Below, piece by piece: positions 6,076 through 19,687 of a stretch of DNA of 64,000 nucleotides (the stretch's first letter is position 1; each line of letters starts with the position of its first letter). Source of the stretch: a virus (taxonomy: Duplodnaviria > Heunggongvirae > Uroviricota > Caudoviricetes); the IMG/VR virus record IMGVR_UViG_3300003310_000099, positions 42,295-106,294 of that record; one strand, 5' to 3'. Position numbers and translations under genes: made by a program. Under the pieces are notes generated by a model, which was not told the origin of the DNA, did not search any database, and saw only the letters and a list, made by a program, of their open reading frames with translations.

Positions 6076-6076
6076 C

Positions 6077-7576: not shown

Positions 7577-7581
7577 CTTTT

Positions 7582-7654: not shown

Positions 7655-7663
7655 CTTAGTTTT

Positions 7664-7735
7664 GGCTCTATGGTGAAATGGATATCATCGGATGCTTCTA
7701 ACATCTGGGTCCAGGTTCGATTCCTGGTGGGGCTG
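7664..7735 (+). tRNA. tRNA-Arg (TCT)
   Basis: Acceptor ggctcta/tggggct (three G-U), anticodon arm ggatg-ctTCTaa-catct, T-arm ccaggTTCGATTcctgg. Confidence 0.55.
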
Positions 7736-7769
7736 CTAACAATACAGATTATTAAGACTATATATCTGT

Positions 7770-8147
7770 ATGCCAATGTATCCTTGCATTTGCACTCCTT
7801 ATGCTCCAGGGACTCCTGTAGATTGCAGTATTCCTGGTGTTGGTGATGCAGGTGGAATATTAGAATTACAATTATTAAATGTCCAAATGGGCATGATGGG
7901 TGTTTACGGAGGTTGCGGCCTTACTTTCTACACTTATTCAATTGCTTATAATGTGACTTTTGGTCCATCAGGGGCTTTTCAAATTCAACAATTTAATAAG
8001 CATTTAGGCGAATGGCAGATGAACATGTTCAGTGGAGTATTGTACCAGACGACTGGTGCATTAAATTCCTATGGTCCTTTTTTACCACTTGACCAGATTC
8101 CAATATTTTGGAATAATGTAGTTCTGCCTCCTACGAATGCGAGGTGA
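7770..8147 (+). CDS. hypothetical protein (125 aa)
   Basis: ORF. Gly-rich. Confidence 0.45.
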   Translation: MPMYPCICTPYAPGTPVDCSIPGVGDAGGILELQLLNVQMGMMGVYGGCGLTFYTYSIAYNVTFGPSGAFQIQQFNKHLGEWQMNMFSGVLYQTTGALNSYGPFLPLDQIPIFWNNVVLPPTNAR

Positions 8148-8150
8148 TTT

Positions 8151-8342
8151 ATGGCAAAAAAGAAGGAAGTAAAGGAAAAATTCAAGTTCGTAAAGATTAG
8201 TGAATTGCATAGTGTTTACGAAGTAGTAGAGATTCCACCTGGCGCAACTCACGTTGAATCAGAGACTGATTACAGTGGCTGTTATTACGAGAGTGATATG
8301 CCAAGTGTGAAGGTCACTTTCTACAGGAAAGAAAAGGTATGA
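8151..8342 (+). CDS. hypothetical protein (63 aa)
   Basis: ORF with AAGGAA-like RBS. Confidence 0.4.
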   Translation: MAKKKEVKEKFKFVKISELHSVYEVVEIPPGATHVESETDYSGCYYESDMPSVKVTFYRKEKV

Positions 8343-8512
8343 AAATTGCTGCTATTGTCGAATTAAACGCTCAAGAACTCAAGTATCTTCTTCACGCTCT
8401 TACTAAACTTGATGCACACTACAATGTAGGGTCCAGGGATTTTAATCGTGAAGAGATGCATGAGAAGCTACAGACGAAGCTTGAAAAAGCAGCTTCGTCT
8501 GGTTTAAAATAG
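8339..8512 (+). CDS. hypothetical protein (58 aa)
   Basis: ATG overlaps the upstream stop. The 3' end contains a 9-bp perfect hairpin gacgaagct…agcttcgtc. Below the track cut-off. Confidence 0.3.
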   Translation: MKIAAIVELNAQELKYLLHALTKLDAHYNVGSRDFNREEMHEKLQTKLEKAASSGLK

Positions 8513-8583
8513 CCCTACTGTTGGTGGGTACAACGGGAAGCCTCCAAAACTTCTGCTTGCGGGTTCGATTCCTGCTAGGGCTG
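8511..8583 (+). tRNA. tRNA-Trp (CCA)
   Basis: Acceptor agcccta/tagggct, D-stem gttg/caac, anticodon arm gaagc-ctCCAaa-acttc (31–39 mismatch), T-arm gcgggTTCGATTcctgc. Confidence 0.55.
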
Positions 8584-8590
8584 CTTTTAT

Positions 8591-8661
8591 AGGTGCGTAG
8601 TGTAATGGTAGCATATCAGTCTCCAAAACTGCTGGTGGGCGTTCGACTCGCTCCGCACCTG
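8591..8661 (+). tRNA. tRNA, anticodon read as CCA (Trp), second copy
   Basis: Acceptor aggtgcg/cgcacct perfect, anticodon loop ctCCAaa with a weak 4-bp stem, T-arm gggcgTTCGACTcgctc. Confidence 0.45.
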
Positions 8662-8670
8662 CTTATTTAT

Positions 8671-8743
8671 TCCTCAATAGCTCAATAGGTAGAGCGCAAA
8701 GCTGTTAACTTTGATGTTCTAGGTTCGAGTCCTAGTTGAGGAG
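8671..8743 (+). tRNA. tRNA-Asn (GTT), second copy
   Basis: Acceptor tcctcaa/ttgagga perfect, anticodon arm caaag-ctGTTaa-ctttg, T-arm ctaggTTCGAGTcctag. Confidence 0.65.
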
Positions 8744-8749
8744 CTTTTT

Positions 8750-8974
8750 ATGCCTGACGACAACATTATTGACATGCGGGATTTTACTCCTGAAGACCAT
8801 GAACGAGTCAAAGAGAACTTGTTGAAAAGTTCTTATCTTTGTCCCAAATGCAAATCTTTACATTTGACAAGTGAGGATGTGGCTGGTAGAGTCTGCTGTT
8901 CATCTCCTGGTAAGTTTTATTGCGAAGGCATCTTATACAAAGTCAAAGATTTGGATGAAATTTATGAAAATTGA
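8750..8974 (+). CDS. hypothetical zinc-ribbon protein (74 aa)
   Basis: CPKC…CC motifs. Confidence 0.4.
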   Translation: MPDDNIIDMRDFTPEDHERVKENLLKSSYLCPKCKSLHLTSEDVAGRVCCSSPGKFYCEGILYKVKDLDEIYEN

Positions 8975-9134
8975 AATAGTTTCTGCGGGTCAAGGCAAAG
9001 GTCATCCAAAAAAAAGATGTTCTTGGTGTGACAAGAAGCTTAAAAAGGATGAAGGTATCGCTACCTGTACTCACACAGAGTACGTCACACTTTGCGAAAA
9101 GTGTTATAGAAAAGCTGGCAATTCAGTTAGGTAA
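8955..9134 (+). CDS. hypothetical Cys-rich protein (~59 aa)
   Basis: Internal ATG of track ORF 8871..9134. CSWC…CEKC motifs. Confidence 0.35.
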   Translation: MKFMKIEIVSAGQGKGHPKKRCSWCDKKLKKDEGIATCTHTEYVTLCEKCYRKAGNSVR

Positions 9135-9336
9135 TTGGCTTTGCACTTCCAGGGAACTCTGGACTTATATTGCCTAAAGGCTGTGGTCGCTTAATCTTAT
9201 ATTGAGCAACTTGGGTGTCTTTAACAGGCATCATACGATTAGGATTGATTGGCACTTGTTTTGGGTTGGGTCCAACAGGTGTGGTCATTTGTTGTGGGCC
9301 AGGGTCTAATCCTTCGAGCCATTGCTTGAAATTCAT
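9127..9336 (-). CDS. hypothetical Pro-rich protein (69 aa)
   Basis: Minus-strand ORF in an otherwise plus-strand region. Low confidence. Confidence 0.3.
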   Translation of the reverse strand: MNFKQWLEGLDPGPQQMTTPVGPNPKQVPINPNRMMPVKDTQVAQYKIKRPQPLGNISPEFPGSAKPIT

Positions 9337-9353
9337 GCATTATATAGGTTTCT

Positions 9354-9596
9354 ATGATTACTATTATTCGTTGTTCTCAATGTAAAAAAGAGCTTTCGAT
9401 TGCTTGTGAAGGGTTTGATGGTAAGTCACTATTCATAAGCCTTGATATTCAAAGGCATTACGACATGTGTAAGGAATGCCACCACATCAAGGATGTAAAA
9501 TATACTCAATGTTTTTGTTCAGTCCAGTGTTTGAAGAATTGGATTGCGAGCGACCTTGACAAATATGTTGAAGATAAAGTAATGTGGGGCCAATAA
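9354..9596 (+). CDS. hypothetical Cys-rich protein (80 aa)
   Basis: CSQCKK…CKECHH zinc-finger-like motifs. Confidence 0.45.
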   Translation: MITIIRCSQCKKELSIACEGFDGKSLFISLDIQRHYDMCKECHHIKDVKYTQCFCSVQCLKNWIASDLDKYVEDKVMWGQ

Positions 9597-9862
9597 TGGA
9601 TGAATTGTACTTTTGTTTACGTTTAACGGAAAATGAGCATTACATTGCTTCATGGGACTTTCAAAAAAAGTGTGAAGAGTTAGGGCTGACTTTCGTTTAT
9701 TACAGGAAGTTGAAGGAAGGTCATGTGCCGCTGTATCGTGAGGTCAAGGTGAAGGGTGATAGGTTGCTAATTAATCAGTTTAAGAAATTCATGAAAGACA
9801 AGTTTTATGATTGGCAGGTTGAGAGGAATCCACACAAGGTTGACAGATTAACGCCACCGTAG
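9584..9862 (+). CDS. hypothetical protein (92 aa)
   Basis: Overlaps the upstream ORF by 13 nt. Confidence 0.45.
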   Translation: MGPIMDELYFCLRLTENEHYIASWDFQKKCEELGLTFVYYRKLKEGHVPLYREVKVKGDRLLINQFKKFMKDKFYDWQVERNPHKVDRLTPP

Positions 9863-9923
9863 TATAATGGTAGTACACAACTCTCGTAAAGTTGGAGTTT
9901 GGGTTCGATTCCCAGCGGTGGCT
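9853..9923 (+). tRNA. tRNA-Thr (CGT)
   Basis: Acceptor gccaccg/cggtggc perfect, anticodon arm caact-ctCGTaa-agttg, T-arm ttgggTTCGATTcccag. Confidence 0.65.
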
Positions 9924-9939
9924 CTCACAGGAGACTTTC

Positions 9940-11223
9940 ATGTTCGACTTCCTTAAGAATAAGACCATTTACCACAATAAGTACAAGACTAATTCAAAAG
10001 CAGTGATTATCTCCTGCTATTTTAATCCTCAGAAGTCACCTTATAGACTCAAGGCATTTAATGTTTGGTATGAGTCTATCAAGCATCTGAATCATCGAAT
10101 TGTTGAATGTGTGATTGGCGAAGCAGAGCCACAGTTGCCAGAGAATGATTATATCCAAAGAATTTATACGCCTAACCTTCTTTGGCATAAAGAATCCTTG
10201 CTAAATAACATCGTTGAAAGCTTACCCGAAGAATACAGGTATGTATTTTGGGTTGATGCGGACGTGCTGTTCACTAATAACAATTGGTTGATTGACAGTG
10301 TGGAAGTATTGCAAACTGCTAACATTGTGCAGCCTTTTGAATATTGCGTCCATATGGAAAAGGATGAATTAACTCCTTCCATTAATGTTGAGGCTCATAA
10401 GGCACAAGTGCAAGACGGAACTTATCTTAAAAACCGTAGGGTTTGGCGAAGTTTCTGTGCCAATTATGGCAAGCTTTCCAAGAAGGATAGTGAAACTTAC
10501 CACCTGCACGGTCATGTTGGGTTTGCTTGGGGTGCAAGGCGTGAAATTTTGGATCGTGTACCTTTGTATGATAAAGCTTTAATTGGTGGTGCGGACCATA
10601 TTATTGCACATGCTGCGGTTGGTGAAGTCAAGCATAAGTGCATTATGAATGCTTTCGCAGACAATATCGAAGAGATTGTCGATTGGTCCAGGGAGTTTTA
10701 CTTGGCGGTGCAAGGTAAAGTGGGTTATGCTCCTGGCGACCTGTACCACATTTGGCATGGTGACATTGACAAGAGAGAGTATTTGAAGCGGATTAAGGAT
10801 TTTACGCCAGAGACGAAAAACATTAACATGAAGGACAAGAATGGTCTTTATGTCACGCATAAGGAAGACCATAAGTATATCAAGAATTACTTCAGGAAGC
10901 GTGAAGTTAGTGAATCTGGAACTTACTATGAGGATGATGGATTCTTGGAGTCGATGGCTCTAGGGTACATGACAGATTCGACTATGATGGGTACATTGCT
11001 TGGCGGAAATCTGCCAGGTGCAATGATTGGTGATATGCTGAATAATGCGGATGAAGTGGATGAAGCACCAGCGGTTACGCCTTACAATGAAGTGCCAGCA
11101 GTGCCGCCTCCACCGCCGATGCCTCCAATACCAGTGCCTATGCCGATTCAAATTCCAGAAACGGTGCAGGAAGCAGAGTTATTGCCGATGCCGCGAGAAG
11201 TAGAACCAGACAACTTCTCATGA
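9940..11223 (+). CDS. putative glycosyltransferase (DxD motif) with Pro-rich C-terminal tail
   Basis: 427 aa from the ATG after AGGAG; the track start lies inside the tRNA. YVFWVDADVLF resembles a GT-A DxD motif. C-terminus PPPPPMPPIPVPMPIQIP. Confidence 0.45.
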   Translation: MFDFLKNKTIYHNKYKTNSKAVIISCYFNPQKSPYRLKAFNVWYESIKHLNHRIVECVIGEAEPQLPENDYIQRIYTPNLLWHKESLLNNIVESLPEEYRYVFWVDADVLFTNNNWLIDSVEVLQTANIVQPFEYCVHMEKDELTPSINVEAHKAQVQDGTYLKNRRVWRSFCANYGKLSKKDSETYHLHGHVGFAWGARREILDRVPLYDKALIGGADHIIAHAAVGEVKHKCIMNAFADNIEEIVDWSREFYLAVQGKVGYAPGDLYHIWHGDIDKREYLKRIKDFTPETKNINMKDKNGLYVTHKEDHKYIKNYFRKREVSESGTYYEDDGFLESMALGYMTDSTMMGTLLGGNLPGAMIGDMLNNADEVDEAPAVTPYNEVPAVPPPPPMPPIPVPMPIQIPETVQEAELLPMPREVEPDNFS

Positions 11224-11247
11224 GATACCTTAGCTGTACCTAGTGGT
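11224..11247 (+). promoter_or_regulatory. conserved motif copy 5 (GATACCTTAGCTGTACCTAGTGG)
   Basis: Immediately after the stop of the glycosyltransferase gene. Followed by hairpin gtgttctgaaacac. Confidence 0.4.
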
Positions 11248-11280
11248 GTGTTCTGAAACACAAAACAAAGGGGGGCTTCA

Positions 11281-11571
11281 ATGCGGTACTCACTGGCTTT
11301 AGTTTGTTTGCTAATTGTTTCGCCTTGCTTTGCTGACAACTTTTTTTCTGTTCTGAAGAAGGACCAGAAAGTTGGGTTGCAAGAAACACCGAATGGCTAT
11401 CACATCAAGGTTTTCAAGAATTTTGGTGAGGACACAGCACCTTACAAGGTGATTGAAATTGGTGATAATTATATTGTGATTGAAGATGCAATCGGCGTGA
11501 ATGAGATTCGGATTCCGATTTACTCTATTAAGTCGATTACAACTGTGAAGTTTCCTCAAAAGGCGAAGTGA
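11281..11571 (+). CDS. secreted protein with N-terminal signal peptide (96 aa)
   Basis: MRYSLALVCLLIVSPCFA hydrophobic N-terminus after an AAGGGGGG RBS. Confidence 0.5.
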   Translation: MRYSLALVCLLIVSPCFADNFFSVLKKDQKVGLQETPNGYHIKVFKNFGEDTAPYKVIEIGDNYIVIEDAIGVNEIRIPIYSIKSITTVKFPQKAK

Positions 11572-11960
11572 TGTGGGACAGCGAAGGAAGGTTAGAGTAT
11601 GGGCCTGGATTGAGGGCTGTAGTTTGGGTTGAGCAAAACATTTCAGATTTATACAGAAAGTTGATTCCTAAGTATTATTACGCTCAACCCCAACTATACC
11701 CAGCACACATCACAGTTGTCAGGTTGAGACTTGAAACTGCTAAAAACATGGAAGTTTGGAACAAATATAATGGAGAGTTGATTCCATTTAGCTATGATAG
11801 TTCAATTCGTTTTGATGGAACTTATTTTTACCTGAATGTCCAGAGCGAGAGAATCGGGGACATTCGTGAAGAGTTAGGATTGCCAAGGTTTCGTTTTGGA
11901 GATTTAGGTGCGGACAAACGGTGTTACCATGTGACAATTGCAAATGTCAAAAATACTTAA
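11568..11960 (+). CDS. 2H phosphoesterase superfamily protein (LigT / Acb1-like fold)
   Basis: 130 aa with two H-Φ-T-Φ motifs (AHITVV, YHVTIA) about 73 residues apart. This is the hallmark of 2'-5' RNA ligase / cyclic phosphodiesterase enzymes. Confidence 0.6.
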   Translation: MMWDSEGRLEYGPGLRAVVWVEQNISDLYRKLIPKYYYAQPQLYPAHITVVRLRLETAKNMEVWNKYNGELIPFSYDSSIRFDGTYFYLNVQSERIGDIREELGLPRFRFGDLGADKRCYHVTIANVKNT

Positions 11961-12126
11961 TTGGGCTTTTTCTTTATTCAAGAAGAAAAGAGAGCTTATA
12001 CATAATGTATATCCTTCATATGAATTGCCCTGTGACTGGTGTTATCGAGTAAGGAGAACAACGATAAACGAAGTGAAGGAACGGATGGTAAGAATTTGTT
12101 CGGAGTGTAAAAATGAGAGACGATAA
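11938..12126 (+). CDS. hypothetical zinc-ribbon protein (62 aa)
   Basis: CDWC…CSEC motifs. Confidence 0.35.
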   Translation: MQMSKILNWAFSLFKKKRELIHNVYPSYELPCDWCYRVRRTTINEVKERMVRICSECKNERR

Positions 12127-12274
12127 AGCGAGTATCGAACAAGCTGATGGCTATTCTGGTGGTAGTTGGCATCGTTTTCTCAAGAAGAGAAAGTTGAGAA
12201 AAGAACGACGCCGTGCTAAAAAGAATCCTGAATGCCAATCAGCTTATCGAAGATATAAAGGTTATGAGTTATAA
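12113..12274 (+). CDS. small basic protein (54 aa)
   Basis: K/R-rich ORF. Below the track cut-off. Low confidence. Confidence 0.25.
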   Translation: MRDDKASIEQADGYSGGSWHRFLKKRKLRKERRRAKKNPECQSAYRRYKGYEL

Positions 12275-12322
12275 ATTCTACGAATTTATGGATTTTTCAT
12301 AGTAGCCCTACTACCATAAGAT

Positions 12323-12808
12323 ATGGTTTTATGTAGCAAGTGCAAAAAAGATAAATCTGCTTCGGAATTTAATTTCAATAGTTCCAAAAATCGGTTGGAA
12401 TATCACTGTAAAGAGTGTCATAGTGAATATTTGAAAGAACATTATAAGAAAAATAAAGATTATTATAAGTCCAAAGCCAGCAAAAGAAATAAGTTGGTTA
12501 AACAAGAAAATAAAGTTAGGATTTTTGAGTATTTGCAAAATCATGCTTGTGTTGATTGTGGAGAAAAAGAGCCTATATTTTTAGATTTTGACCATGTAAG
12601 GGGTAAGAAACGATGTAGTCTTTCTAAGCTTGTTAGGGGAGGCTATGCGTGGGAAATAATTCAACAAGAGATAGACAAGTGCGAAATTCGCTGTGTGAAA
12701 TGCCATAGAGTAAAAACATACAAGCAGTTTGGTTGGTATGGTTGGTGGGAAGATATGGCCCGTGGGTGTGATGGATTAGCACATCACTCTACGAAAGTGA
12801 AAGAATAG
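12323..12808 (+). CDS. HNH homing endonuclease (zinc-finger type)
   Basis: 161 aa. CSKC…CKEC, LDFDHV, CVKCH motifs. Its last ~17 codons are encoded by the tRNA-Arg gene at 12757..12829. Confidence 0.75.
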   Translation: MVLCSKCKKDKSASEFNFNSSKNRLEYHCKECHSEYLKEHYKKNKDYYKSKASKRNKLVKQENKVRIFEYLQNHACVDCGEKEPIFLDFDHVRGKKRCSLSKLVRGGYAWEIIQQEIDKCEIRCVKCHRVKTYKQFGWYGWWEDMARGCDGLAHHSTKVKE

Positions 12809-12829
12809 GTTCAAATCCTATACGGGCTA
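12757..12829 (+). tRNA. tRNA-Arg (ACG)
   Basis: Acceptor ggcccgt/acgggct, anticodon arm tcact-ctACGaa-agtga, T-arm ataggTTCAAATcctat. Overlaps the 3' end of the HNH ORF. Confidence 0.6.
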
Positions 12830-12836
12830 ATATGAA

Positions 12837-12908
12837 GCGCCTATAGCATAATGGCAATGCGCGACGTTGCCAACGTCGAAACTGTGGGTTCGAGTCCCAC
12901 TAGGCGCT
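12837..12908 (+). tRNA. tRNA-Gly (GCC)
   Basis: Acceptor gcgccta/taggcgc perfect, anticodon arm cgacg-ttGCCaa-cgtcg, T-arm gtgggTTCGAGTcccac. Confidence 0.65.
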
Positions 12909-12912
12909 CTTT

Positions 12913-12984
12913 GCGGGTGTAGCATAATGGCGATGCACTTGCTTCCCAAGCAAGATATTGTGGGTTCGAGTCCCATCACCCGCT
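12913..12984 (+). tRNA. tRNA-Gly (CCC)
   Basis: Acceptor gcgggtg/cacccgc perfect, anticodon arm cttgc-ttCCCaa-gcaag, T-arm gtgggTTCGAGTcccat. Confidence 0.65.
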
Positions 12985-13012
12985 TTGTCCTTTTAATATA
13001 GGGAGTATTAAA

Positions 13013-13195
13013 ATGAAGTGTGCAACATGTTGTTCTGTATGTAAGAAGAAGTGTGCCGAGCTTCATGAATGTGATTGTGCAGAATACTCCGATCTTTGCC
13101 CAGAATGTTGGCAGAAAGTTCCAACCCGTCACCGAGAAGAAGTTTGTATAGTGGATTGGTTGGATTACGATAAGGATATGGTTGATTTAAATTAA
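13013..13195 (+). CDS. hypothetical Cys-rich protein (60 aa)
   Basis: 10 Cys in 60 aa (CATCCSVCKKKC…CDC…CPEC). Confidence 0.4.
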   Translation: MKCATCCSVCKKKCAELHECDCAEYSDLCPECWQKVPTRHREEVCIVDWLDYDKDMVDLN

Positions 13196-13200
13196 CCAGT

Positions 13201-13271
13201 GCGGCTATGATGTAGTGGTAGCCTGTCTGCTTGCCATGCAGGACGTGCGGGTTCGATTCCCGCTAGCCGCT
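13201..13271 (+). tRNA. tRNA (anticodon uncertain, possibly GCC)
   Basis: Acceptor gcggcta/tagccgc perfect, T-arm gcgggTTCGATTcccgc. Anticodon arm tctgc-ttGCCat-gcagg; D-arm unclear. Confidence 0.5.
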
Positions 13272-13273
13272 TT

Positions 13274-13480
13274 ATGAGAAAAGAAAGTCAAGAAGAATAT
13301 TTTTCCCGTATGGATGAGGTCTTTTTCCTTCAATATCATTTAGGCATGAGATATGACAAGATTAAGGCAATGTCAGACCATGACCGTAAACTGACTATTG
13401 AATTGTTTTGTAAAGAAAACAATAAAAAAAAGTCTACTTTGCTTTTTCCAAGAAAAGGATTGCCAGATGACCCGTCCTAA
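13274..13480 (+). CDS. hypothetical protein (68 aa)
   Basis: ATG 3 nt after the tRNA. Confidence 0.4.
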   Translation: MRKESQEEYFSRMDEVFFLQYHLGMRYDKIKAMSDHDRKLTIELFCKENNKKKSTLLFPRKGLPDDPS

Positions 13481-13622
13481 ACTCGAAAAGCCTGTTAAGT
13501 GCTTGGGTTGTGGTGGTCAGATGAGGTTAAGGAAAAGACCTAGAGGATACATCCTAGTGTGCAAGAATGCTCCTAAATGTAGGAAGGTTGCAGCTTATGA
13601 AGTATGTGAACCTAATAGTTAA
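13467..13622 (+). CDS. small zinc-ribbon protein (51 aa)
   Basis: CLGCGGQM…CKNAPKC resembles topoisomerase-type zinc ribbons. Internal ATG of track ORF 13398..13622. Confidence 0.35.
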   Translation: MTRPKLEKPVKCLGCGGQMRLRKRPRGYILVCKNAPKCRKVAAYEVCEPNS

Positions 13623-13776
13623 TGTTGGCAGTCTTGACGAAGATGAATGTGAAGCGATTGAAGCTGAAATCAGTGAATTGCTTGAGCGTCATAACATGAA
13701 GCTGCATTCAACTTCATCAACGCCAAAGCAAGGTTACAGAGAAGAGGAATTGCAGTTTTACCCGAACGATATGTAA
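13597..13776 (+). CDS. hypothetical acidic protein (59 aa)
   Basis: Internal ATG of track ORF 13567..13776. Confidence 0.35.
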   Translation: MKYVNLIVNVGSLDEDECEAIEAEISELLERHNMKLHSTSSTPKQGYREEELQFYPNDM

Positions 13777-13777
13777 T

Positions 13778-13850
13778 GGCCCGTTCGACTTCTAGCTGAG
13801 GTCGGTAGCCTCTCAAGCTACATAGATGGGGGCAGAACCCATACGGGTCA
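13778..13850 (+). ncRNA. tRNA-like gene, anticodon loop ctCTCaa, aberrant T-loop GGCAGAA
   Basis: Acceptor ggcccgt/acgggtc, D-stem gact/ggtc, perfect anticodon arm gtagc-ctCTCaa-gctac. The T-arm atggg-GGCAGAA-cccat lacks T54/Ψ55/C56. Confidence 0.35.
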
Positions 13851-13851
13851 C

Positions 13852-14106
13852 TTGGAGATTGATATGGAACTTAAACTTTTCAAGTTGAAGAAGTATATAT
13901 CTCCTGAATGGGGAAATACTTACGACATTGACACTTATTACTACATTTCAAATGATGTAATAAAGGTTCTTGAAGAGATAGATGAGGTCCACGGCTGGGA
14001 GTTGAGTGGTTCTGATGGCAAGTGGACTTACGATCATTACTATGATATGGATCGTGCAGAGTTGAAGGTGGTTTTGGAAGAGGTTAAGTGTAATATTGTG
14101 ATATAA
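13852..14106 (+). CDS. hypothetical protein (84 aa)
   Basis: ATG 2 nt after the tRNA-like gene. Confidence 0.45.
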   Translation: MEIDMELKLFKLKKYISPEWGNTYDIDTYYYISNDVIKVLEEIDEVHGWELSGSDGKWTYDHYYDMDRAELKVVLEEVKCNIVI

Positions 14107-14223
14107 TGAGTAGGGTCGAAATTGGCCGTCTGAGAGCGTTTGCACGACGTACTCCTCGGACCTTTCCATAACTGATCTATATGATTTATTTGGGTGCAAC
14201 TGGATAAATCTCTACTCATTTAT

Positions 14224-14295
14224 GGCCCATTCGTCTAGCGGCTAGGATAACTGGCTTTCAATCAGTTGACAGGAGTTCGATTCTCCTATGGGCTA
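14224..14295 (+). tRNA. tRNA, anticodon read as TTC (Glu), third copy
   Basis: Acceptor ggcccat/atgggct, anticodon arm actgg-ctTTCaa-tcagt, T-arm aggagTTCGATTctcct. Confidence 0.55.
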
Positions 14296-14491
14296 CATTG
14301 AAGAGTGGTTTAAATGTTGGTGTACATGTAAAGCCGTGAATTGGGTATATGCTGGCGATCCTATGGACCAGACTATACCCGATGTTCACGGCTTTATTTG
14401 TTTTAAATGTGGTGCAGAGAATGAATTTGATAATCTGGACCTATTTGAAGACGATGAAAGGTATTTTAAGGAAGGTTTAGAGCATCCATAG
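14288..14491 (+). CDS. hypothetical Cys-rich protein (67 aa; start uncertain)
   Basis: The track start overlaps the tRNA 3' end; the alternative internal Met is at 14363. CWCTCK…CFKCGAE motifs. Confidence 0.35.
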   Translation: MGYIEEWFKCWCTCKAVNWVYAGDPMDQTIPDVHGFICFKCGAENEFDNLDLFEDDERYFKEGLEHP

Positions 14492-15323: not shown

Positions 15324-15351
15324 TTTACAAAACGTAGTTTTGTGTTATACT
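15324..15351 (+). promoter_or_regulatory. sigma70-like promoter P1 (-35 TTTACA, 16-nt spacer, extended -10 TGTGTTATACT)
   Basis: Matches the TGn-TATAAT architecture. The same 14-mer TGTGKTATACTGAG recurs at 19691. The predicted start site coincides with the ATG of the ligase gene, giving a leaderless mRNA. Confidence 0.5.
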
Positions 15352-15357
15352 GAGCGT

Positions 15358-16458
15358 ATGAACAAACTACCTCCACTTTACTCCCGTCGTTCCGATGGGA
15401 AAATTCAAATTTGGGAAAAAGAGATTTCGGGCAATAAGTACCGAACTCACTCTGGCATTAAAGACGGCGAAATCGTCGTTTCTGAATGGACAGAATGTGT
15501 AGCAAAGAACGTCGGCAAGAAAAATCATATCACCGCCGAACAACAAGCGACCATCGAAGCCAAGGCCGATTGGCAAAAGAAGAAGGACAAAGGTTATAAG
15601 GAAGATATCAACGACGTTGATAACTATACTTTTTTTGAGCCTATGCTGGCTAAGGTCTGGCAAGATTACAAAGACGAAGCTGTTTTTCCTGCCTATGTCC
15701 AACCAAAGTTGGACGGAATGCGTCTTATTGCCAACAAAGAAGGTCTATGGACCAGGAATGGAAAGGAATATAAGTCCATTCCTCACATCTACGAAGCATT
15801 AAGACCTTTATTTAAATTTAATCCGAAGTATATCTTCGATGGGGAAGTCTACGCAGACAAATTTGCTAATGACTTCAATAAGATTTGTTCCTTAGCTAAA
15901 AAAACTAAGCCAACAGCGGAAGATATTGCGGAATCGGCAGTCAGTATCGAATACCATATTTATGATTTTCCTTATTGGGAAGATGTTTTTAGTAAGCGAC
16001 ATGCTGAGTTGCTGAAAGTGTCAAAGCATTTCAAGCATGATAAACTAAAATTGGTTGATACGCATGAAGTGAGTTCTCATAAAGAAATTGACGGTCATTA
16101 TGAGAACTTTGTCGAGCTTGGCTATGAAGGCTTGATGGTTCGTATTGACGCTCATTATGAAAATAAGCGAACCAAGTCCCTGTTGAAATACAAGGAATTC
16201 AAGGATGATGAGTATGAGATTTTGGATGTAGTGGAGGGTATTGGCAATAGGAGTGGTGGTGCTGGTGCGCTTGTTTGTAAGAACAAGGATGGCAGCACTT
16301 TTCATTCCAATATCAAGGGCAATCGTGAATTTTGCAAGGCAATGCTTATCAATAAGAACGACTATATTGGCAAAATGGCCACTATTCAGTTCTTTAATTT
16401 GACGGTTGATGGCGTGCCACGTTTCCCCTATTTTTTGAGAGTCCGCGACGATGGATGA
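15358..16458 (+). CDS. ATP-dependent DNA ligase
   Basis: Motif I KLDGMR, motif III FDGEVY, motif IV EGLMVR, motif V LLKYK, followed by an OB-like C-terminus. The ORF-track TTG start at 15340 is replaced by the ATG at 15358. Confidence 0.8.
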   Translation: MNKLPPLYSRRSDGKIQIWEKEISGNKYRTHSGIKDGEIVVSEWTECVAKNVGKKNHITAEQQATIEAKADWQKKKDKGYKEDINDVDNYTFFEPMLAKVWQDYKDEAVFPAYVQPKLDGMRLIANKEGLWTRNGKEYKSIPHIYEALRPLFKFNPKYIFDGEVYADKFANDFNKICSLAKKTKPTAEDIAESAVSIEYHIYDFPYWEDVFSKRHAELLKVSKHFKHDKLKLVDTHEVSSHKEIDGHYENFVELGYEGLMVRIDAHYENKRTKSLLKYKEFKDDEYEILDVVEGIGNRSGGAGALVCKNKDGSTFHSNIKGNREFCKAMLINKNDYIGKMATIQFFNLTVDGVPRFPYFLRVRDDG

Positions 16459-16810
16459 ATTATATAAGTATTTTGAAGATGTTAAGTTTTCAGCCATGCT
16501 TAATGTTTGCAGTGGTTTTAACTGTGTAAAGCATGGGTTGGATATTGATATAAATGTTAATAAACTGATTTGGGAAATGGATGAATGGGAATTTCAGTTA
16601 GAACTCTATGACAGAATCCATGAATTATTGTCTGTTAGTGGTCTTGAAGAGTTTGAACATCCATATGATATGGCAATAACCGCCTATCTTTTTGCATTAA
16701 GTAAGCGTAATATGCCATTGGCGGTACTGTGTTCCAGGTTTGTCAAGGACGTTCCAAGGCTTTTCTGGGCCTATAAAATGGCTAAGGAGTTGAGGGTTCG
16801 GGATGAATGA
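16451..16810 (+). CDS. hypothetical protein (119 aa)
   Basis: ORF overlapping the ligase stop by 8 nt. Confidence 0.45.
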   Translation: MDELYKYFEDVKFSAMLNVCSGFNCVKHGLDIDINVNKLIWEMDEWEFQLELYDRIHELLSVSGLEEFEHPYDMAITAYLFALSKRNMPLAVLCSRFVKDVPRLFWAYKMAKELRVRDE

Positions 16811-17477
16811 TTTACCCCCTTGGCGAAGATGGTTTGAAGTCTTTATTCGTTTCCTTATATTCTATAGCATTTTCAGTTTCTATGCAGAAGTAGATTTCGC
16901 CAAAGAAGATACAAGTAGTGGGTTCTGGCTCTGGAGTGAGCGAGTTGTAGCTATCATATTCACTATTGAATACATTTTAAGATGGAGTTGGTCCCCGCAC
17001 GGCTGGAAATGGCCTTTCACTTTCTATGCTGTCGTAGATTTACTCGCAATTCTACCTTTCTACATAGGATTCTTTGTCCCATCCCACCACTTGGGCGTCA
17101 TACGGTCTTTGCGTGTTCTAAGACTGTTGAAGCTAACTAGGTACAGTTTAGCTTTGGACAGGTTTTTAGACAGTTTCAGAAGAGTTAAGGATGAATTAAC
17201 GATCATCATGGTGTTTTTGATGATTGTAGTCTTTTTAGGGGCTACTCTTCTGTATGAGTTTGAGCATCCTGTTCAGCCTGAAAAAATCTCCTGTTTAGCA
17301 GACGCAACTTGGCTATGTTTCATCACCATAGCGACTATTGGTTATGGTGACATATACCCAATGACTTGGCCTGGAAGGATTATAGTGATGATTGTGTGTG
17401 TATTGGGGCTTGGTATTTTTGGTTCATTCGTCAGTCTTTTAGGCAGTTCCGTAATATGCAGGGATAAGAAACCTTAA
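16803..17477 (+). CDS. voltage-gated potassium channel (6-TM, Kv-like)
   Basis: 224 aa. S4-like VIRSLRVLRLLKLTRYS has Arg/Lys every third residue. The pore has the canonical K+ selectivity filter TIATIGYGD. There are hydrophobic segments before and after. Confidence 0.8.
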   Translation: MNDLPPWRRWFEVFIRFLIFYSIFSFYAEVDFAKEDTSSGFWLWSERVVAIIFTIEYILRWSWSPHGWKWPFTFYAVVDLLAILPFYIGFFVPSHHLGVIRSLRVLRLLKLTRYSLALDRFLDSFRRVKDELTIIMVFLMIVVFLGATLLYEFEHPVQPEKISCLADATWLCFITIATIGYGDIYPMTWPGRIIVMIVCVLGLGIFGSFVSLLGSSVICRDKKP

Positions 17478-18025
17478 ATTCCAATTTTTTTCATTTGTTC
17501 ATTATCCCTATCGTTTGGTTTTAGATAAGCACCCATGAAGTAATCTGCCAGAGGAAACACTACGTTGTAGTTTTTACCTGGGTAGGTGTGGTGCATCCAA
17601 TGATAGCGAGCCAGGAATTTATAGATTGCAGTATTTGAGAACCATGAATATTTTGGTCGGTGCATTTCGCTGTGAACTATATTCCAGATTAAGTGGTGTA
17701 CTATTACTGTGAAGAAGAAAACAATTGCGAAGGTTGAGGATATAAACCAGAGTGGTATGCAGACAATAAATGCTAAGAACGCGCCGAGTTTTACGTCTAG
17801 TTCTATATCTATGTCCCTCCCGTATGGATCGGGTTCATAGTTAAAATCTTCGTAATATTTTCTATGGTGTAGAAAACTGTGCTGCTCATAGGTTTTATTT
17901 AAAAAAGGGATGCAGCGGTATATAAAACTAGGTAGTCTGCGTTTGTGCATGAGCCAACGGTGTACAAAGTATTCTATGAAAGACATGATGACGATGCTTA
18001 AAACTAGACTAGCAAATATTAGCAT
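17474..18025 (-). CDS. fatty-acid hydroxylase / sterol-desaturase family membrane di-iron enzyme
   Basis: 183 aa. Histidine boxes HRWLMH, HHRKY, HSEMH and HWMHH lie in hydrophobic segments. Confidence 0.65.
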   Translation of the reverse strand: MLIFASLVLSIVIMSFIEYFVHRWLMHKRRLPSFIYRCIPFLNKTYEQHSFLHHRKYYEDFNYEPDPYGRDIDIELDVKLGAFLAFIVCIPLWFISSTFAIVFFFTVIVHHLIWNIVHSEMHRPKYSWFSNTAIYKFLARYHWMHHTYPGKNYNVVFPLADYFMGAYLKPNDRDNEQMKKIGI

Positions 18026-18367
18026 GGAGACTCCTTCTCATCCGTATATACGCTTGACAAAGTGAGTTCCTGTGCTATATTATCAATGTGACAGCCAAAA
18101 AAGGAGGAGTTATGCTCTAGGTAGAAAATTGCGATTGTGTATTCCATTTCAACAAGGCGAGTCTTGCCGACCCAAACGTTCCAGCTTGGGTGTTAAAGGC
18201 AAAGGGTGAAACATATTATGTTACCCATGTAACATCGAATGCTCCTTGGTCTACCAAGGAAACGCCTGACAATTCGCATACGAAGGGTAGTTTGAAATTT
18301 AAGCGTGTGAATGTCATTATTCACGAAGATAATTCGGCTGAAATATTTGAAGTTTAGGAGGCATAAA

Positions 18368-19687
18368 ATGCCTAATAAAGTGAAGATTACTGGCGGTCCT
18401 AGTTTTTCTTGGTATGTCGTAACTTTCGTTTTATTCATCTGGGATTTTTACTACGGTCTAGTTTGGTTAATCACCAATCTAGTAACCGTAGTTTCCATTT
18501 ATATTTATCTTCGCTACAAGCATGTCCCAATTATTAAGAGTTTACTTGATACCGACTGGTACAAGTTTACGATGGGGCAGGTAGTTTTCCACAATTTCCC
18601 TTACACAAATGTCGAATACGCCTTTATTAACCGTGGGAAGACTCAGTTCCCAGAAGGTTTCGCTGATGCACTGCGTAAAGAACTTAAAGCTCTGAGTAAG
18701 CTTAAGTTAAGGTACAAAGAAATCCAGTGGCTTGCTGAGAACTGGTGTATGAGTGGGGATTATGTGGAATTTCTGACTGATTTTAGGTTTAATCCTGAAC
18801 AGGTTAAGATTTCGCAGAGCAGTGGCGACCTGGATATTAAGATTAGCGGACCTTGGAAGGAAACAATTCTTTGGGAAGTGCCTTTGATGGCAATTATCAG
18901 TGAATTGTATTTCAAAATGACTGAAAGAACTTGGGATGAAGATGCCTTTGTCAGGAAGACTGAAAATAAAGGTAACAAAATGCAGAATGCTGGAGTTGCT
19001 TGGAGCGATTTCGGCACCCGACGTAGGTTTTCTTTCGCTGTGCAGGATAAACTTAATTCGGTTATGCGGCACTTTCATGAAGGATTCAAAGGCACAAGCA
19101 ATCCTTACTTTGCCATGAAGTATAATTTAACCCCTATTGGCACTTATGCTCATGAAGCTGTGATGGCTATGCAGATGTTTTATGGTGCCAAGGATTCTAA
19201 CCGAAAATGGATGGAGTATTGGTGCAAGGAATACGATGGCTACATGCGAATCGCTCTTACTGATACTCTTACTACCGATGTTTTCTTGAGGGATTTTGAC
19301 TATAAAACAGCAAATGAGTTTGCTGGAGTTCGTCAGGACAGTGGTGATCCGTTTGAATTTGGTGAAAAACTGATTCAGCATTATGAGAAATTGGGCATTG
19401 ACCCAAAAACTAAGAAAATCGTGTTTAGTGATAGTTTGGATGCTGATAAGGCAGTGGCTTTGCACGAAAGATTTTCTGACCGTATTCAGTGTGTGATGGG
19501 TATTGGCACACATTTGACTAACGATTGTGGGCATAAACCACTGAATATGGTTATTAAGCTGACTGCTGTTGAAGGTATGCCAGTAGTGAAGCTGTCGGAC
19601 GACAAAGGCAAGCACACTGGTATTCCTGAAGTAATTGATAAGGTCAAGGAAGAATTGGGTATCAACAATAAGCTTGTCATTGTGTGA
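18368..19687 (+). CDS. pncB: nicotinate phosphoribosyltransferase (PncB-like)
   Basis: LLDTDWYKFTMGQVV and SDFGTRRR motifs are typical of the NAPRTase family. AGGAGG RBS upstream of ATG 18368. An N-terminal ~45-aa hydrophobic extension is present. Confidence 0.75.
   Translation: MPNKVKITGGPSFSWYVVTFVLFIWDFYYGLVWLITNLVTVVSIYIYLRYKHVPIIKSLLDTDWYKFTMGQVVFHNFPYTNVEYAFINRGKTQFPEGFADALRKELKALSKLKLRYKEIQWLAENWCMSGDYVEFLTDFRFNPEQVKISQSSGDLDIKISGPWKETILWEVPLMAIISELYFKMTERTWDEDAFVRKTENKGNKMQNAGVAWSDFGTRRRFSFAVQDKLNSVMRHFHEGFKGTSNPYFAMKYNLTPIGTYAHEAVMAMQMFYGAKDSNRKWMEYWCKEYDGYMRIALTDTLTTDVFLRDFDYKTANEFAGVRQDSGDPFEFGEKLIQHYEKLGIDPKTKKIVFSDSLDADKAVALHERFSDRIQCVMGIGTHLTNDCGHKPLNMVIKLTAVEGMPVVKLSDDKGKHTGIPEVIDKVKEELGINNKLVIV

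What the first reader, a model, noticed from the sequence alone, without database searches (positions are those of the whole stretch)
16803..17477. Phage-encoded voltage-gated K+ channel (6-TM with S4 and TIGYGD filter)
The 224-aa ORF has an S4-like helix VIRSLRVLRLLKLTRY with Arg or Lys at every third position. After an S5-like helix comes the canonical K+ selectivity filter TIATIGYGD, then an S6-like helix. Known viral K+ channels, the chlorovirus Kcv proteins, are minimal 2-TM pores without voltage sensors. A full Kv-type channel in a phage could manipulate host membrane potential during infection or lysis timing.
Basis: partly seen in the sequence, partly recalled or inferred. Interest (0 to 1): 0.75.

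Follow-up and report, generated by a model that had tools for sequence, protein, structure and literature searches.

The report
Kv-type potassium channel in huge phage
A ~596-kb bacteriophage genome carries an intact, conserved 224-residue potassium channel with a complete voltage sensor, a kind of gene that recurs in phage sequence databases but has never been tested, so how phages might control their host's membrane voltage is still open.

Summary
ORF 16803..17477 (+) encodes a 224-aa protein with the S4 helix VIRSLRVLRLLKLTRY (R101, R104, R107, K110, R113) and the filter TIATIGYGD (175-183). It matches Pfam Ion_trans over S1-S6 (E 5.7e-26). Its AlphaFold model (pLDDT 92) superposes full-length on Kv2.1, Kv4.2, Kv1.2 and Shaker (TM 0.76-0.83). 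The S2 Phe/Glu and S3 Asp that pair with S4 charges are conserved.

The window is a huge phage. It has 49 tRNAs and small same-strand ORFs. It is syntenic with a 390-kb IMG/VR contig and shares proteins with curated 462-595-kb phage genomes.

The gene is under strong purifying selection, matches the genome's composition, and forms an overlapping gene string with DNA ligase. It is accessory: three related huge phages lack it.

The novelty claim is overstated. PHROG 7872, at least 91 IMG/VR contigs, Halorubrum virus Humcor1 and several Lactobacillus phages already carry 6-TM Ion_trans genes. None has been characterised, and the viral K+ channel and jumbo-phage papers I checked do not discuss them.

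The most likely function is a tetrameric voltage-gated K+ channel in the infected cell's membrane. Gating polarity and physiological role are inferred, not shown.

Verdict: new member of a known kind, moderate interest.

The parts
16803..17477 (+). Gene for a 224-aa 6-TM Kv-type K+ channel subunit. It has no N-terminal T1 domain, and its C-terminus ends 7 residues after the hydrophobic part of S6.
   Evidence: ORF. Pfam Ion_trans 5.7e-26 and Ion_trans_2 5.7e-14. PHROG 7872 at 6.8e-32. AF2 pLDDT 92.2. Foldseek PDB top 50 are all Kv, TM 0.66-0.83.
16792..16796 (+). Shine-Dalgarno-like GAGGG 6 nt upstream of the ATG. It lies inside the 3' end of ORF119.
   Evidence: Read directly from the sequence. 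SD-like motifs occur upstream of 39% of window ORFs against a 13% background.
16818..16901 (+). S1 helix (aa 6-33)
   Evidence: AF2 secondary structure; hydropathy peak at 10-28.
16923..16991 (+). S2 helix (aa 41-63). It carries E46, F53, E56 and R60, i.e. the outer acidic residue and the F-x-x-E charge-transfer-centre motif.
   Evidence: E56 is invariant, and E46, F53 and R60 are at least 90% conserved in 85 homologs. These residues align to FTMEY of Kv2.1.
17022..17075 (+). S3 helix (aa 74-91) with D79, the inner acidic partner of the S4 charges.
   Evidence: D79 is invariant in 85 homologs and in 80/80 cellular and 42/42 clade members.
17082..17141 (+). S4 voltage-sensor helix (aa 94-113). 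R101, R104, R107, K110 and R113 are each 3 residues apart. The two outermost positions, normally Arg, are H95 and G98.
   Evidence: It aligns to the Kv2.1 S4 FRIMRILRILKLARHS, and Kv2.1 also has a non-basic residue (Gln) opposite G98.
17148..17183 (+). Helical S4-S5 linker (aa 116-127). Its length fits a domain-swapped Kv1-4/KvAP-type assembly.
   Evidence: AF2 helix 116-127. The best structural matches are Kv1, Kv2, Kv3, Kv4 and Shaker channels. That these are domain-swapped is from my own knowledge, and the swap here is an inference.
17187..17264 (+). S5 helix (aa 129-154)
17295..17351 (+). Pore helix (aa 165-176) and selectivity filter T175-I-A-T178-I-G180-Y-G-D183.
   Evidence: G180, Y181, G182 and D183 are invariant and T178 is nearly invariant in 85 homologs. 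The variant A-T-I-G-Y-G-D replaces the usual T-T-V-G-Y-G-D.
17367..17468 (+). S6 inner helix (aa 189-222) with the conserved hinge glycine G202. It has no PxP motif.
   Evidence: AF2. G202 is invariant in A1 and aligns to the conserved S6 Gly of Kv2.1.
16451..16810 (+). ORF119, a lineage-specific soluble protein. Its stop overlaps the channel start by 8 nt, and it lies upstream of the channel in all related genomes.
   Evidence: It has only 7 homologs, all in this phage lineage, and no Pfam, NCBIfam or PADLOC match. Any role is unknown.
15340..16458 (+). ATP-dependent DNA ligase, first gene of the overlapping ligase-ORF119-channel string (8-nt overlap with ORF119).
   Evidence: Pfam DNA_ligase_A_M 3.4e-17 and DNA_ligase_OB_2. 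It is 86% identical in L012 and 70% in LR756511.1.

Best explanation
The ORF encodes a functional subunit of a minimal Kv-type potassium channel. Four copies assemble around a K+-selective pore (S5, pore helix, T-I-G-Y-G-D filter, S6). Each copy has its own S1-S4 voltage sensor, joined to the pore by a helical S4-S5 linker, as in KvAP and Kv1-4. The gene belongs to a ~596-kb tailed phage. It is probably co-transcribed with DNA ligase and a small lineage-specific ORF, and the protein is inserted into the host cytoplasmic membrane after infection, with both termini in the cytoplasm. Movement of the S4 charges R101, R104, R107, K110 and R113 past the F53/E56/D79 charge-transfer centre opens the S6 gate, and K+ flows down its electrochemical gradient. 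My preferred physiological reading is that the channel opens on depolarisation and pulls the membrane potential back toward the K+ equilibrium potential. That would buffer the host's membrane potential and K+ content during the long infection cycle of a huge phage, for example against leak-induced depolarisation or premature lysis triggers.

Shown here: the gene, its domain content, fold, conserved functional residues, phage context, purifying selection and accessory distribution.

Inferred: tetramer, domain swap, K+ selectivity, voltage gating, timing of expression, gating polarity and physiological role.
For: Family and fold:
- Pfam Ion_trans 5.7e-26 over residues 9-213 and Ion_trans_2 5.7e-14.
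- phmmer against PDB gives Kv2.1 3.7e-23, Kv4.2 1e-19, MlotiK1 3e-13 and KvAP 7e-12.
- The AF2 model has pLDDT 92.2 and pTM 0.73 with the full S1-S6 helix pattern.
- All Foldseek PDB top-50 hits are Kv channels, TM 0.66-0.83 over about 210-260 columns.

Functional residues:
- E56, D79, R101 and G180-Y-G-D183 are invariant, and E46, F53, R60, R104, R107, K110, R113 and T178 are at least 90% conserved in 85 homologs.
- Loop charges follow the positive-inside rule, 11 K+R inside against 2 outside.

Selection and residence:
- Against the L012 copy, dN is 0.105 while synonymous sites are saturated (pS 0.81).
- Channel identity (84%) is close to ligase identity (86%), while the neighbouring ORF119 is 46%.
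- GC and GC3 equal the genome's.

Phage context:
- 49 tRNAs.
- 135 ORFs, mean 134 aa, 76% on one strand.
- PHROG hits include four HNH endonucleases, PNK, MazG and Lar.
- Synteny with a 390-kb IMG/VR contig.
- Homologs in curated 462-595-kb phage genomes.

Operon: the ligase/ORF119 and ORF119/channel boundaries each overlap by 8 nt, and the order is conserved in L012, L172 and L002.
Against: - No functional measurement exists for this or any phage 6-TM channel in the literature I could search.
- Gating polarity is undetermined. The best curated prokaryotic model is a hyperpolarisation-activated archaeal Kv, but at 52.6 bits against a cutoff of 300.
- The subclade departs from the consensus at residues that could alter function. 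The two outermost S4 arginines are replaced (H95, G98). The filter is A-T-I-G-Y-G-D, not T-T-V-G-Y-G-D. The second pore-helix Trp is Leu.
- Three related huge phages lack the gene, so it is dispensable for the lineage.
- Promoter and terminator scans are at chance level, so co-transcription rests only on the overlaps.
- The window holds no capsid or terminase gene, so phage identity rests on context and relatives.
Confidence: 0.8

Rival explanations
1. Same protein, opposite polarity or role. It is a hyperpolarisation-activated or constitutively open K+ uptake channel. It uses the very negative bacterial membrane potential to keep cytoplasmic K+ high for phage translation and turgor, acting as an auxiliary 'metabolic' gene and not as a voltage buffer.
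For: The best NCBIfam match is the hyperpolarisation-activated archaeal Kv model. The gene sits among auxiliary genes (NAPRTase, fatty-acid hydroxylase, tRNA arrays) in a genome with many tRNA genes. From my own knowledge, K+ channels can serve K+ uptake in bacteria, for example HpKchA of Helicobacter pylori.
Against: The NCBIfam score is far below the cutoff (52.6 against 300). The strongest sequence and fold matches are depolarisation-activated Kv1-4 and KvAP. Polarity cannot be read from the sequence either way.
Confidence: 0.25
2. A deliberate depolariser or K+ efflux device, analogous in role to chlorovirus Kcv. Opening dissipates membrane potential or turgor to block superinfection, shut down host transport, or time lysis.
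For: Greiner et al. 2018 (PMC6163359) note that T4 and T5 raise host K+ conductance at infection, and they speculate about a similar role for vibriophage channels. In the temperate phages JNU_P5 and Dulem virus 33 the ion-transporter gene lies next to the CI/Cro module, a typical place for exclusion genes.
Against: Tailed phages have no internal membrane to deliver a channel at entry, so the Kcv mechanism cannot apply directly (own knowledge). A K+-selective channel drives the potential toward E_K, which in most media is strongly negative, so it is a poor depolariser. The gene is linked to a replication gene, not to a lysis cassette.
Confidence: 0.12
3. The channel gene is cellular DNA, either a mis-assembly or mis-binning, or the window is a cellular or eukaryotic giant-virus genome and not a phage.
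For: The window has no capsid, portal or terminase gene. The closest homologs include cellular copies (P0033, P0041 and P0028 contexts). Some 'phage' database records are bacterial, for example 'Acinetobacter phage MD-2021a' with acnB.
Against: The same ligase-ORF119-channel arrangement is found on four independent assemblies (596 kb, 8 kb, 390 kb IMG/VR and 8.9 kb). GC and GC3 are identical to the surrounding genome. The flanks hold 49 tRNAs, four HNH endonucleases and short ORFs with no known family. Other window proteins are 68-82% identical to a curated 595-kb phage genome. SD-like motifs and overlapping genes indicate prokaryotic translation.
Confidence: 0.03
4. A decaying or neutral passenger gene with no role in infection.
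For: It is absent from three related huge phages and lies in a variable region where neighbours such as the fatty-acid hydroxylase and NAPRTase are gained and lost.
Against: The reading frame is intact in seven subclade members at 63-95% identity, with all key residues kept. dN is 0.105 with saturated dS. It is conserved as well as the DNA ligase.
Confidence: 0.04

Closest known systems
Prokaryotic voltage-gated K+ channels KvAP (Aeropyrum pernix) and KvLm (Listeria monocytogenes)
   Same: Single 6-TM subunit of about 220-290 aa with no T1 domain. S4 carries Arg/Lys every third residue. The filter is of the TxGYGD type, and S6 has a glycine hinge and no PxP motif. KvAP matches at E 7e-12 over residues 50-207.
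   Different: Encoded by a phage. It has five S4 charges, with His and Gly at the two outermost positions. The filter is A-T-I-G-Y-G-D. There is essentially no cytoplasmic C-terminal tail. Sequence identity to any cellular homolog is at most about 38-44%.
Eukaryotic Kv1-Kv4 / Shaker channels (transmembrane core)
   Same: These are the best sequence and structure matches: Kv2.1 E 3.7e-23 and TM 0.76-0.80, Kv4.2 TM 0.83. They share the F-x-x-E motif in S2, the Asp in S3 and a helical S4-S5 linker. Kv2.1 also has a non-basic residue (Gln) opposite G98, with Arg or Lys at all five inner positions.
   Different: No T1 tetramerisation domain, no PxP gate motif and no long termini. Identity is 21-27%.
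Chlorovirus Kcv and other viral or phage 2-TM K+ channels (Greiner et al. 2018, PMC6163359)
   Same: Virus-encoded, with a K+ channel signature filter and a minimal size for their class.
   Different: Kcv-type proteins are pore-only (2 TM, 79-156 aa). The structural overlap with BFVD viral channels covers only the pore, about 100 columns or fewer and TM at most 0.40. The window protein adds a complete S1-S4 voltage sensor. Kcv is delivered by a virion membrane (own knowledge), which a tailed phage lacks.
PHROG 7872 and annotated 6-TM 'ion transport proteins' of Halorubrum virus Humcor1, Lactobacillus phages PLE2 and JNU_P5, and Dulem virus 33
   Same: Phage or archaeal-virus genes with Pfam Ion_trans, the TTVGYGD filter, and in Humcor1 and Dulem virus 33 an arginine-rich S4 with 7 spaced charges (JNU_P5 shows only a 3-charge run). 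All are uncharacterised.
   Different: Only 25-33% identical to the window protein. They sit in small (35-58 kb), mostly temperate genomes, in two cases next to the CI/Cro module. The window gene is in a ~596-kb phage next to a DNA ligase.
Channels on other huge-phage-like contigs (L007 539 kb, L008 128 kb, L011 193 kb, L054 340 kb IMG/VR, P0032 on TARA contigs)
   Same: 45-50% identical 6-TM channels embedded in neighbourhoods rich in ORFs with no known family, alongside RNA ligase, SmpB, PARP, PRPP synthase, CsrA and homing endonucleases.
   Different: No shared synteny with the window apart from the channel. Most keep 7 S4 charges and a 30-100-aa C-terminal tail. They form separate well-supported subclades interleaved with cellular sequences.

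Membership tests
Pfam Ion_trans (PF00520) / voltage-gated-like 6-TM cation channel superfamily | Profile match above the gathering score covering S1-S6 | tested here: met
   91.6 bits against a cutoff of 25, residues 9-213 on profile positions 2-229 of 241.
Pfam Ion_trans (PF00520) / voltage-gated-like 6-TM cation channel superfamily | Six TM helices plus a re-entrant pore helix, with both termini cytoplasmic | tested here: met
   AF2 helices, hydropathy and positive-inside tally of 11 against 2.
K+-selective channels | Signature filter T-x-G-Y/F-G(-D) after a pore helix | tested here: met
   T178-I-G-Y-G-D183. G, Y, G and D are invariant among 85 homologs. The variant has Ala at 177 where 74/80 cellular homologs have Thr.
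K+-selective channels | Measured K+ over Na+ selectivity | not testable with these tools
   This needs electrophysiology or flux assays.
Voltage-gated K+ channels (Kv, KvAP-like) | S4 with at least 4 basic residues at three-residue spacing | tested here: met
   R101, R104, R107, K110 and R113. They align residue-for-residue with the Kv2.1 S4.
Voltage-gated K+ channels (Kv, KvAP-like) | Charge-transfer centre: aromatic and acidic residues in S2 (F-x-x-E) and an acidic residue in S3 | tested here: met
   F53, E56 and D79 are conserved in 79-80 of 80 cellular homologs (F 79, E 80, D 80) and in 39-42 of 42 clade members (F 39, E 42, D 42).
Voltage-gated K+ channels (Kv, KvAP-like) | Full-length structural similarity to solved Kv channels, including a helical S4-S5 linker | tested here: met
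   TM 0.76-0.83 to Kv2.1, Kv4.2, Kv1.2 and Shaker. Linker helix at 116-127.
Voltage-gated K+ channels (Kv, KvAP-like) | Voltage-dependent opening, and its polarity | not testable with these tools
   The curated equivalog models do not reach their cutoffs: MVP-type 52.6 against 300, Kch 32 against 425.
Phage-encoded gene (huge phage) | Located in a phage genome, not in cellular DNA | tested here: met
   49 tRNAs. Phage-like gene architecture. PHROG hits. Synteny with a 390-kb IMG/VR contig. 68-82% identical proteins in the curated 595-kb phage LR756511.1 and homologs in two other 462-485-kb phages. No capsid or terminase gene lies inside the window itself.
Kcv-type viral miniature K+ channels | Pore-only 2-TM architecture of about 80-160 aa | tested here: not met
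   The protein has 6 TM segments and 224 aa. BFVD matches cover only the pore.
Known anti-phage defence systems (PADLOC) | Match to a defence-system protein model | tested here: not met
   No PADLOC hit for the channel or for ORF119.

The most novel reading that the evidence does not exclude
Huge phages, in several independent lineages, have captured complete voltage-sensor K+ channels to take electrical control of the infected cell. In the window's subclade the sensor has been remodelled. The invariant H96-L97-G98 replaces the outermost arginine (the Shaker R1 position), the filter and pore helix are altered, and the cytoplasmic tail is deleted. At the very negative bacterial resting potential this remodelled sensor could behave differently from cellular Kv channels. 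It might activate at shifted voltages, or it might conduct a gating-pore ('omega') cation or proton leak through the sensor itself, as small-residue R1 mutants of Shaker do (own knowledge). The protein would then be a phage-tuned, voltage-dependent regulator of proton-motive force and not a plain K+ channel.
Probability: 0.1. Interest if true: 0.75.

Novelty: new member of a known kind. Interest (0 to 1): 0.5.

Why it matters
All characterised viral K+ channels are pore-only proteins. The 2025 Kcv review I checked (PMC12332018) does not mention phages at all, and two jumbo-phage surveys (PMC7824862, PMC13282480) and the huge-phage paper (PMC7162821) do not mention K+ channels. This gene, its relatives on other huge-phage contigs and the IMG/VR set show that complete voltage-sensor channels are a recurrent, selected but unstudied part of phage gene repertoires.

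If functional, it is a concrete handle on an open question: whether and how phages actively set host membrane potential and K+ content during infection. That bears on lysis timing, superinfection, and abortive-infection systems that act through the membrane.

It is also one of the smallest natural Kv-type subunits, at 224 aa with no cytoplasmic domains. That could make it useful for structural work and channel engineering, as Kcv has been.

Tried and rejected
- **Megablast against phages.** A search of 15 kb around the gene against INPHARED phages found nothing. Relatives appear only at the protein level.
- **Single-protein IMG/VR scan.** It found nothing. The profile scan was needed.
- **A single huge-phage Kv lineage.** My working idea was that all huge-phage copies form one phage-specific clade. 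A first bootstrap looked supportive, with at most 1 of 80 GTDB sequences inside. I rejected it after context look-ups showed that clade members P0033 and P0041 are cellular, and a focused tree showed at least four separate supported phage subclades with unresolved deep nodes.
- **R1->Gly as a phage-specific change.** I rejected this because the cellular P0041 group and the Gemmata homolog also lack Arg at that position. It is enriched in this clade but not phage-specific.
- **ORF119 as a channel partner.** I found no support. It has only 7 homologs, all in the same lineage, none next to the channels of other phages, and no family match.
- **Promoter and terminator scan.** Counts are at the shuffle expectation and are uninformative.
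- **'Acinetobacter phage MD-2021a'.** This top tblastn hit was discarded as a phage example because the contig carries acnB, ydhP and rfbA and looks bacterial.
- **Link to the published 596-kb genome.** I could not confirm that the contig is the 596-kb genome of Paez-Espino et al. 2016, because the paper is not held. The link rests on length and JGI origin only.
- **Source environment.** I did not determine the environment of the source samples.
Full report
**1. The observation**

The ORF is exactly as described. It runs 16803..17477 on the + strand, with an ATG start, 224 codons and a TAA stop. A Shine-Dalgarno-like GAGGG sits 6 nt upstream of the start.

The string VIRSLRVLRLLKLTRY is residues 99-114, with R101, R104, R107, K110 and R113 at every third position. 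TIATIGYGD is residues 175-183.

Kyte-Doolittle analysis finds five strongly hydrophobic segments (S1 10-28, S2 41-59, S3 74-92, S5 132-150, S6 193-211) and the pore helix. S4 has low hydropathy, as expected for an amphipathic voltage sensor. Loop charges obey the positive-inside rule for an N-in/C-in topology: 11 K+R on the inside against 2 on the outside.

**2. What the protein is**

- Pfam Ion_trans matches at E 5.7e-26 (91.6 bits, cutoff 25) over residues 9-213, that is, profile positions 2-229 of 241. Ion_trans_2 matches the pore at 5.7e-14.
- Against PDB sequences the best hits are Kv2.1 (3.7e-23), Kv4.2, Kv3.1, Kv4.3, Kv1.2/2.1 chimeras, Kv1.3, MlotiK1 (3e-13), KCNQ2 and KvAP (7e-12).
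- An AlphaFold2 model built on 85 homologs has mean pLDDT 92.2 and pTM 0.73. Its helices are S1 6-33, S2 41-63, S3 74-91, S4 94-113, S4-S5 linker 116-127, S5 129-154, pore helix 165-176 and S6 189-222.
- All top-50 Foldseek matches in the PDB are Kv channels, with TM-scores of 0.66-0.83 normalised to the query over about 210-260 columns.
- The viral structure library BFVD returns only pore-only channels aligned over about 100 columns or fewer.

The residues that define a working sensor and pore are present and conserved. E56, D79, R101, G180, Y181, G182 and D183 are invariant. E46, F53, R60, R104, R107, K110, R113, T178 and G202 are at least 90% conserved across 85 homologs.

In the alignment to Kv2.1, F53-x-x-E56 lines up with the S2 FTMEY motif and D79 with the S3 Asp. 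The five S4 charges line up with the Kv2.1 S4, which also has a non-basic residue (Gln) opposite G98.

The helical 12-residue S4-S5 linker and the Kv1-4 best matches argue for a domain-swapped tetramer. That is an inference. There is no T1 domain, no PxP motif, and only 7 residues after the hydrophobic part of S6, so this is a bare transmembrane core like KvAP.

**3. Is it in a phage?**

The window is 40% GC. It holds about 135 ORFs with a mean length of 134 aa, 76% of them on one strand. SD-like motifs lie upstream of 39% of starts, against a 13% background. It carries 49 tRNA genes.

PHROG matches include five HNH or endonuclease VII proteins, DNA methyltransferase, polynucleotide kinase, MazG, Lar-like anti-restriction, a weak tail-sheath-stabiliser hit, and several strong hits to phage families of unknown function.

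The identical protein lies on a 596,394-bp JGI contig (a second copy is listed at 596,617 bp) and on an 8-kb contig from another sample.

A 390-kb IMG/VR contig (L012) is syntenic with the window: ligase 86%, ORF119 46%, channel 84%, and many flanking genes at 60-83%.

Other window proteins are 68-82% identical to the 595-kb 'uncultured phage' genome LR756511.1. They also have syntenic homologs in the 485-kb LR745208.1 and the 462-kb LR756500.1.

Al-Shayeb et al. 2020 mention a previously reported circular 596-kb phage genome from Paez-Espino et al. 2016. The contig may be that genome, but I could not verify it.

No capsid or terminase gene lies within the 64-kb window. Phage identity therefore rests on architecture and relatives, and that evidence is strong.

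**4. Status of the gene in the phage**

- Ligase (15340-16458), ORF119 (16451-16810) and the channel (16803-17477) overlap by 8 nt at each boundary. They keep this order in four assemblies.
- Between the window and L012 copies, dN is 0.105 while synonymous sites are saturated (pS 0.81).
- GC and GC3 of the gene (40.6% and 41.8%) equal those of the genome.
- The gene is accessory. The 47 INPHARED records with a channel hit include no 'uncultured phage' record, and the LR756511.1 ligase locus has other neighbours.
- Next to the channel, the fatty-acid hydroxylase is present in the window and L002 but absent from L012 and L172. NAPRTase is reduced to a remnant in L012.

**5. Relatives**

Of 2,350 database homologs, six are 63-95% identical and form the window's subclade. 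About 30 are 40-53% identical. Named bacterial 'ion transporters' start at about 39% or below.

In a scan of 185,579 species genomes the best cellular matches were 34-38% (Gemmata, Planctomycetota, Flavobacteriaceae).

Several of the 42-50% relatives lie on huge-phage-like contigs:
- 539 kb, with rows of tiny ORFs that have no known family.
- 128 kb, with tRNA-ligase CPD, NYN, ParB, PRPP synthase and CsrA.
- 193 kb, with RNA ligase, kinase and HNH.
- 137-kb TARA contigs with SmpB, PARP and LAGLIDADG.
- A 340-kb IMG/VR contig.

Others are in plainly cellular neighbourhoods (P0033, P0041, P0028).

A focused NJ tree with 200 bootstraps shows the window subclade at 99-100% support. At least three other supported groups (91-100%) contain phage copies, and a fifth, at 94%, joins a huge-phage-like contig (L009) with the cellular P0033. 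Cellular sequences are interleaved, and the deep nodes are unresolved at 13-42%. The simplest reading is repeated exchange between large phages and bacteria, not one ancient phage lineage.

IMG/VR as a whole holds at least 91 contigs with relatives. Most have TTVGYGD and 6-7 spaced S4 charges, and many are 15-60 kb contigs from isolate genomes, likely prophages.

**6. Peculiarities of the window's subclade**

- At the position equivalent to Shaker R1 (window G98), 79 of 80 cellular homologs have Arg or Lys. In the 42-sequence clade around the window, 15 lack a basic residue there (11 Gly) and one more has Lys where the others have Arg.
- H96-L97-G98 is invariant in the seven subclade members.
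- The inner charges and the acidic and aromatic partners are untouched.
- The subclade also has A/S-T-I-G-Y-G-D where relatives have T-T-V-G-Y-G-D.
- In most members it has W-L where relatives have W-W in the pore helix.
- It has no C-terminal tail, whereas relatives have 30-100 residues.

The loss of R1 is not phage-specific, because the cellular P0041 group and the Gemmata homolog share it. Its meaning is unknown.

**7. How it most likely works**

Shown: an intact, selected, Kv-fold gene with all sensor and filter hallmarks, in a huge phage.

Inferred from the well-established Kv mechanism: four subunits form a K+-selective pore, S4 movement gates S6, and the protein sits in the host inner membrane after infection.

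My preferred role is depolarisation-activated buffering of membrane potential and K+ during a long infection cycle. This role is speculative, at roughly one in three. Gating polarity is not determinable from the sequence, since NCBIfam gives only sub-threshold hits, the best being a hyperpolarisation-activated archaeal Kv. A K+-uptake role and a Kcv-like depolarising or exclusion role remain open. The channel does not match any PADLOC defence model.

**8. Comparison with what is known**

Greiner et al. 2018 catalogued phage K+ channels. Nearly all were 2-TM proteins, plus a 259-aa 'ion transporter' in Lactobacillus phage PLE that is identical to a host protein. The paper never uses the word 'voltage'.

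The 2025 review of viral K+ channels does not mention phages. Two broad jumbo-phage surveys and the huge-phage paper do not mention K+ channels.

Databases, in contrast, already hold such genes: PHROG 7872 ('unknown function'), Halorubrum virus Humcor1 ('pfam00520, six predicted TM'), and Lactobacillus phage JNU_P5 and Dulem virus 33, where the gene is next to the CI/Cro module.

The finding is therefore a new member of a known kind. It is noteworthy for its host genome (a ~596-kb phage), its minimal size and its remodelled sensor. It is not a new kind of system.

**9. Verdict**

The novelty is overstated, though the family has not been studied experimentally. Interest is 0.5.

Noticed in passing
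window 330..14296 (38 genes) and scattered to 61819: ARAGORN finds 49 tRNA genes in 64 kb. They include multiple isoacceptors and duplicates (for example 3 Pro-TGG, 3 Asn-GTT, 2 Trp-CCA) and are interspersed with four small HNH endonuclease genes. Complete huge phage genomes were reported to encode up to 67 tRNAs (PMC7162821), so the whole 596-kb genome may approach that number.
   Followed up: partly
window 17474..18025 (-): A membrane-bound fatty-acid hydroxylase superfamily protein (Pfam FA_hydroxylase 1.8e-09, His-box motifs) is convergent with the channel. Their stop codons overlap in the palindrome TTAA. It is present in the window and L002 but absent from the syntenic relatives L012 and L172. 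A lipid-modifying enzyme next to a membrane channel may not be a coincidence.
   Followed up: partly
window 18311..19687 (+): A full nicotinate phosphoribosyltransferase (NAPRTase 2.8e-60) is encoded here. It is reduced to a 90-aa remnant in L012. NAD+ salvage genes are a reported jumbo-phage trait (title of PMC11662467).
   Followed up: no
window 25942..26772 and 26948..28624 (+): A PP2C-type phosphatase lies next to a 558-aa protein with a weak, sub-threshold protein-kinase domain match (Pkinase 1.3e-05, 25.2 bits against a cutoff of 31.7). This is a possible Ser/Thr signalling pair. The kinase-like protein is conserved in the 462-595-kb phages LR745208.1, LR756500.1 and LR756511.1.
   Followed up: partly
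window, upstream of many ORF starts (e.g. 7770, 14917, 22322, 29763, 38000, 54744): TATATAA- or ATAAATA-like A/T motifs lie within about 15 nt of many start codons that lack an SD-like sequence. They could be a phage-specific promoter or a short-leader signal.
   Followed up: no
L005 2314..3717 (Lactobacillus phage JNU_P5) and L006 2570..3597 (Dulem virus 33): In two temperate phages the 6-TM ion-transporter gene lies immediately downstream of, and on the same strand as, a CI/XRE-type repressor and opposite Cro. This suggests expression from the prophage, as a lysogenic-conversion or exclusion gene.
   Followed up: no
L003 (CAKLQH020000004.1) and the records of hits H38, H39, H61, H62, H65 and H66: The INPHARED records named 'Acinetobacter phage MD-2021a' carry acnB, ydhP, rfbA, rmlD and map. 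They look like bacterial chromosome contigs mislabelled as phage.
   Followed up: partly
L178 243..2397 and L177 5121..8876: In two cellular loci the Kv-type channel is adjacent to an MbnB/TglH/ChrH-family (DUF692-like) gene and an SCO6045_C-domain gene. In L178 the three genes overlap on one strand as an apparent operon. This may be a conserved channel-enzyme association in uncultivated bacteria.
   Followed up: no
L179 7153..8783: A cellular contig carries two tandem Ion_trans K+ channel genes (251 and 260 aa), hinting at heteromeric prokaryotic Kv channels.
   Followed up: no
window 56558..57349 (+) and 50833..51642 (+): The phage encodes a glucose-1-phosphate thymidylyltransferase-like protein (41% identity to RfbA/RmlA homologs, PHROG 3980 at 7e-52) and a type I methionine aminopeptidase-like protein (about 46-48% identity to bacterial Map).
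   Followed up: partly
L176 7010..8599 (LR756511.1) and L173 5599..7164: PARP/WGR-like proteins occur in huge-phage relatives, next to the ligase in LR756511.1 and two genes upstream of the channel, with a LAGLIDADG endonuclease gene between them, on the TARA contig.
   Followed up: no
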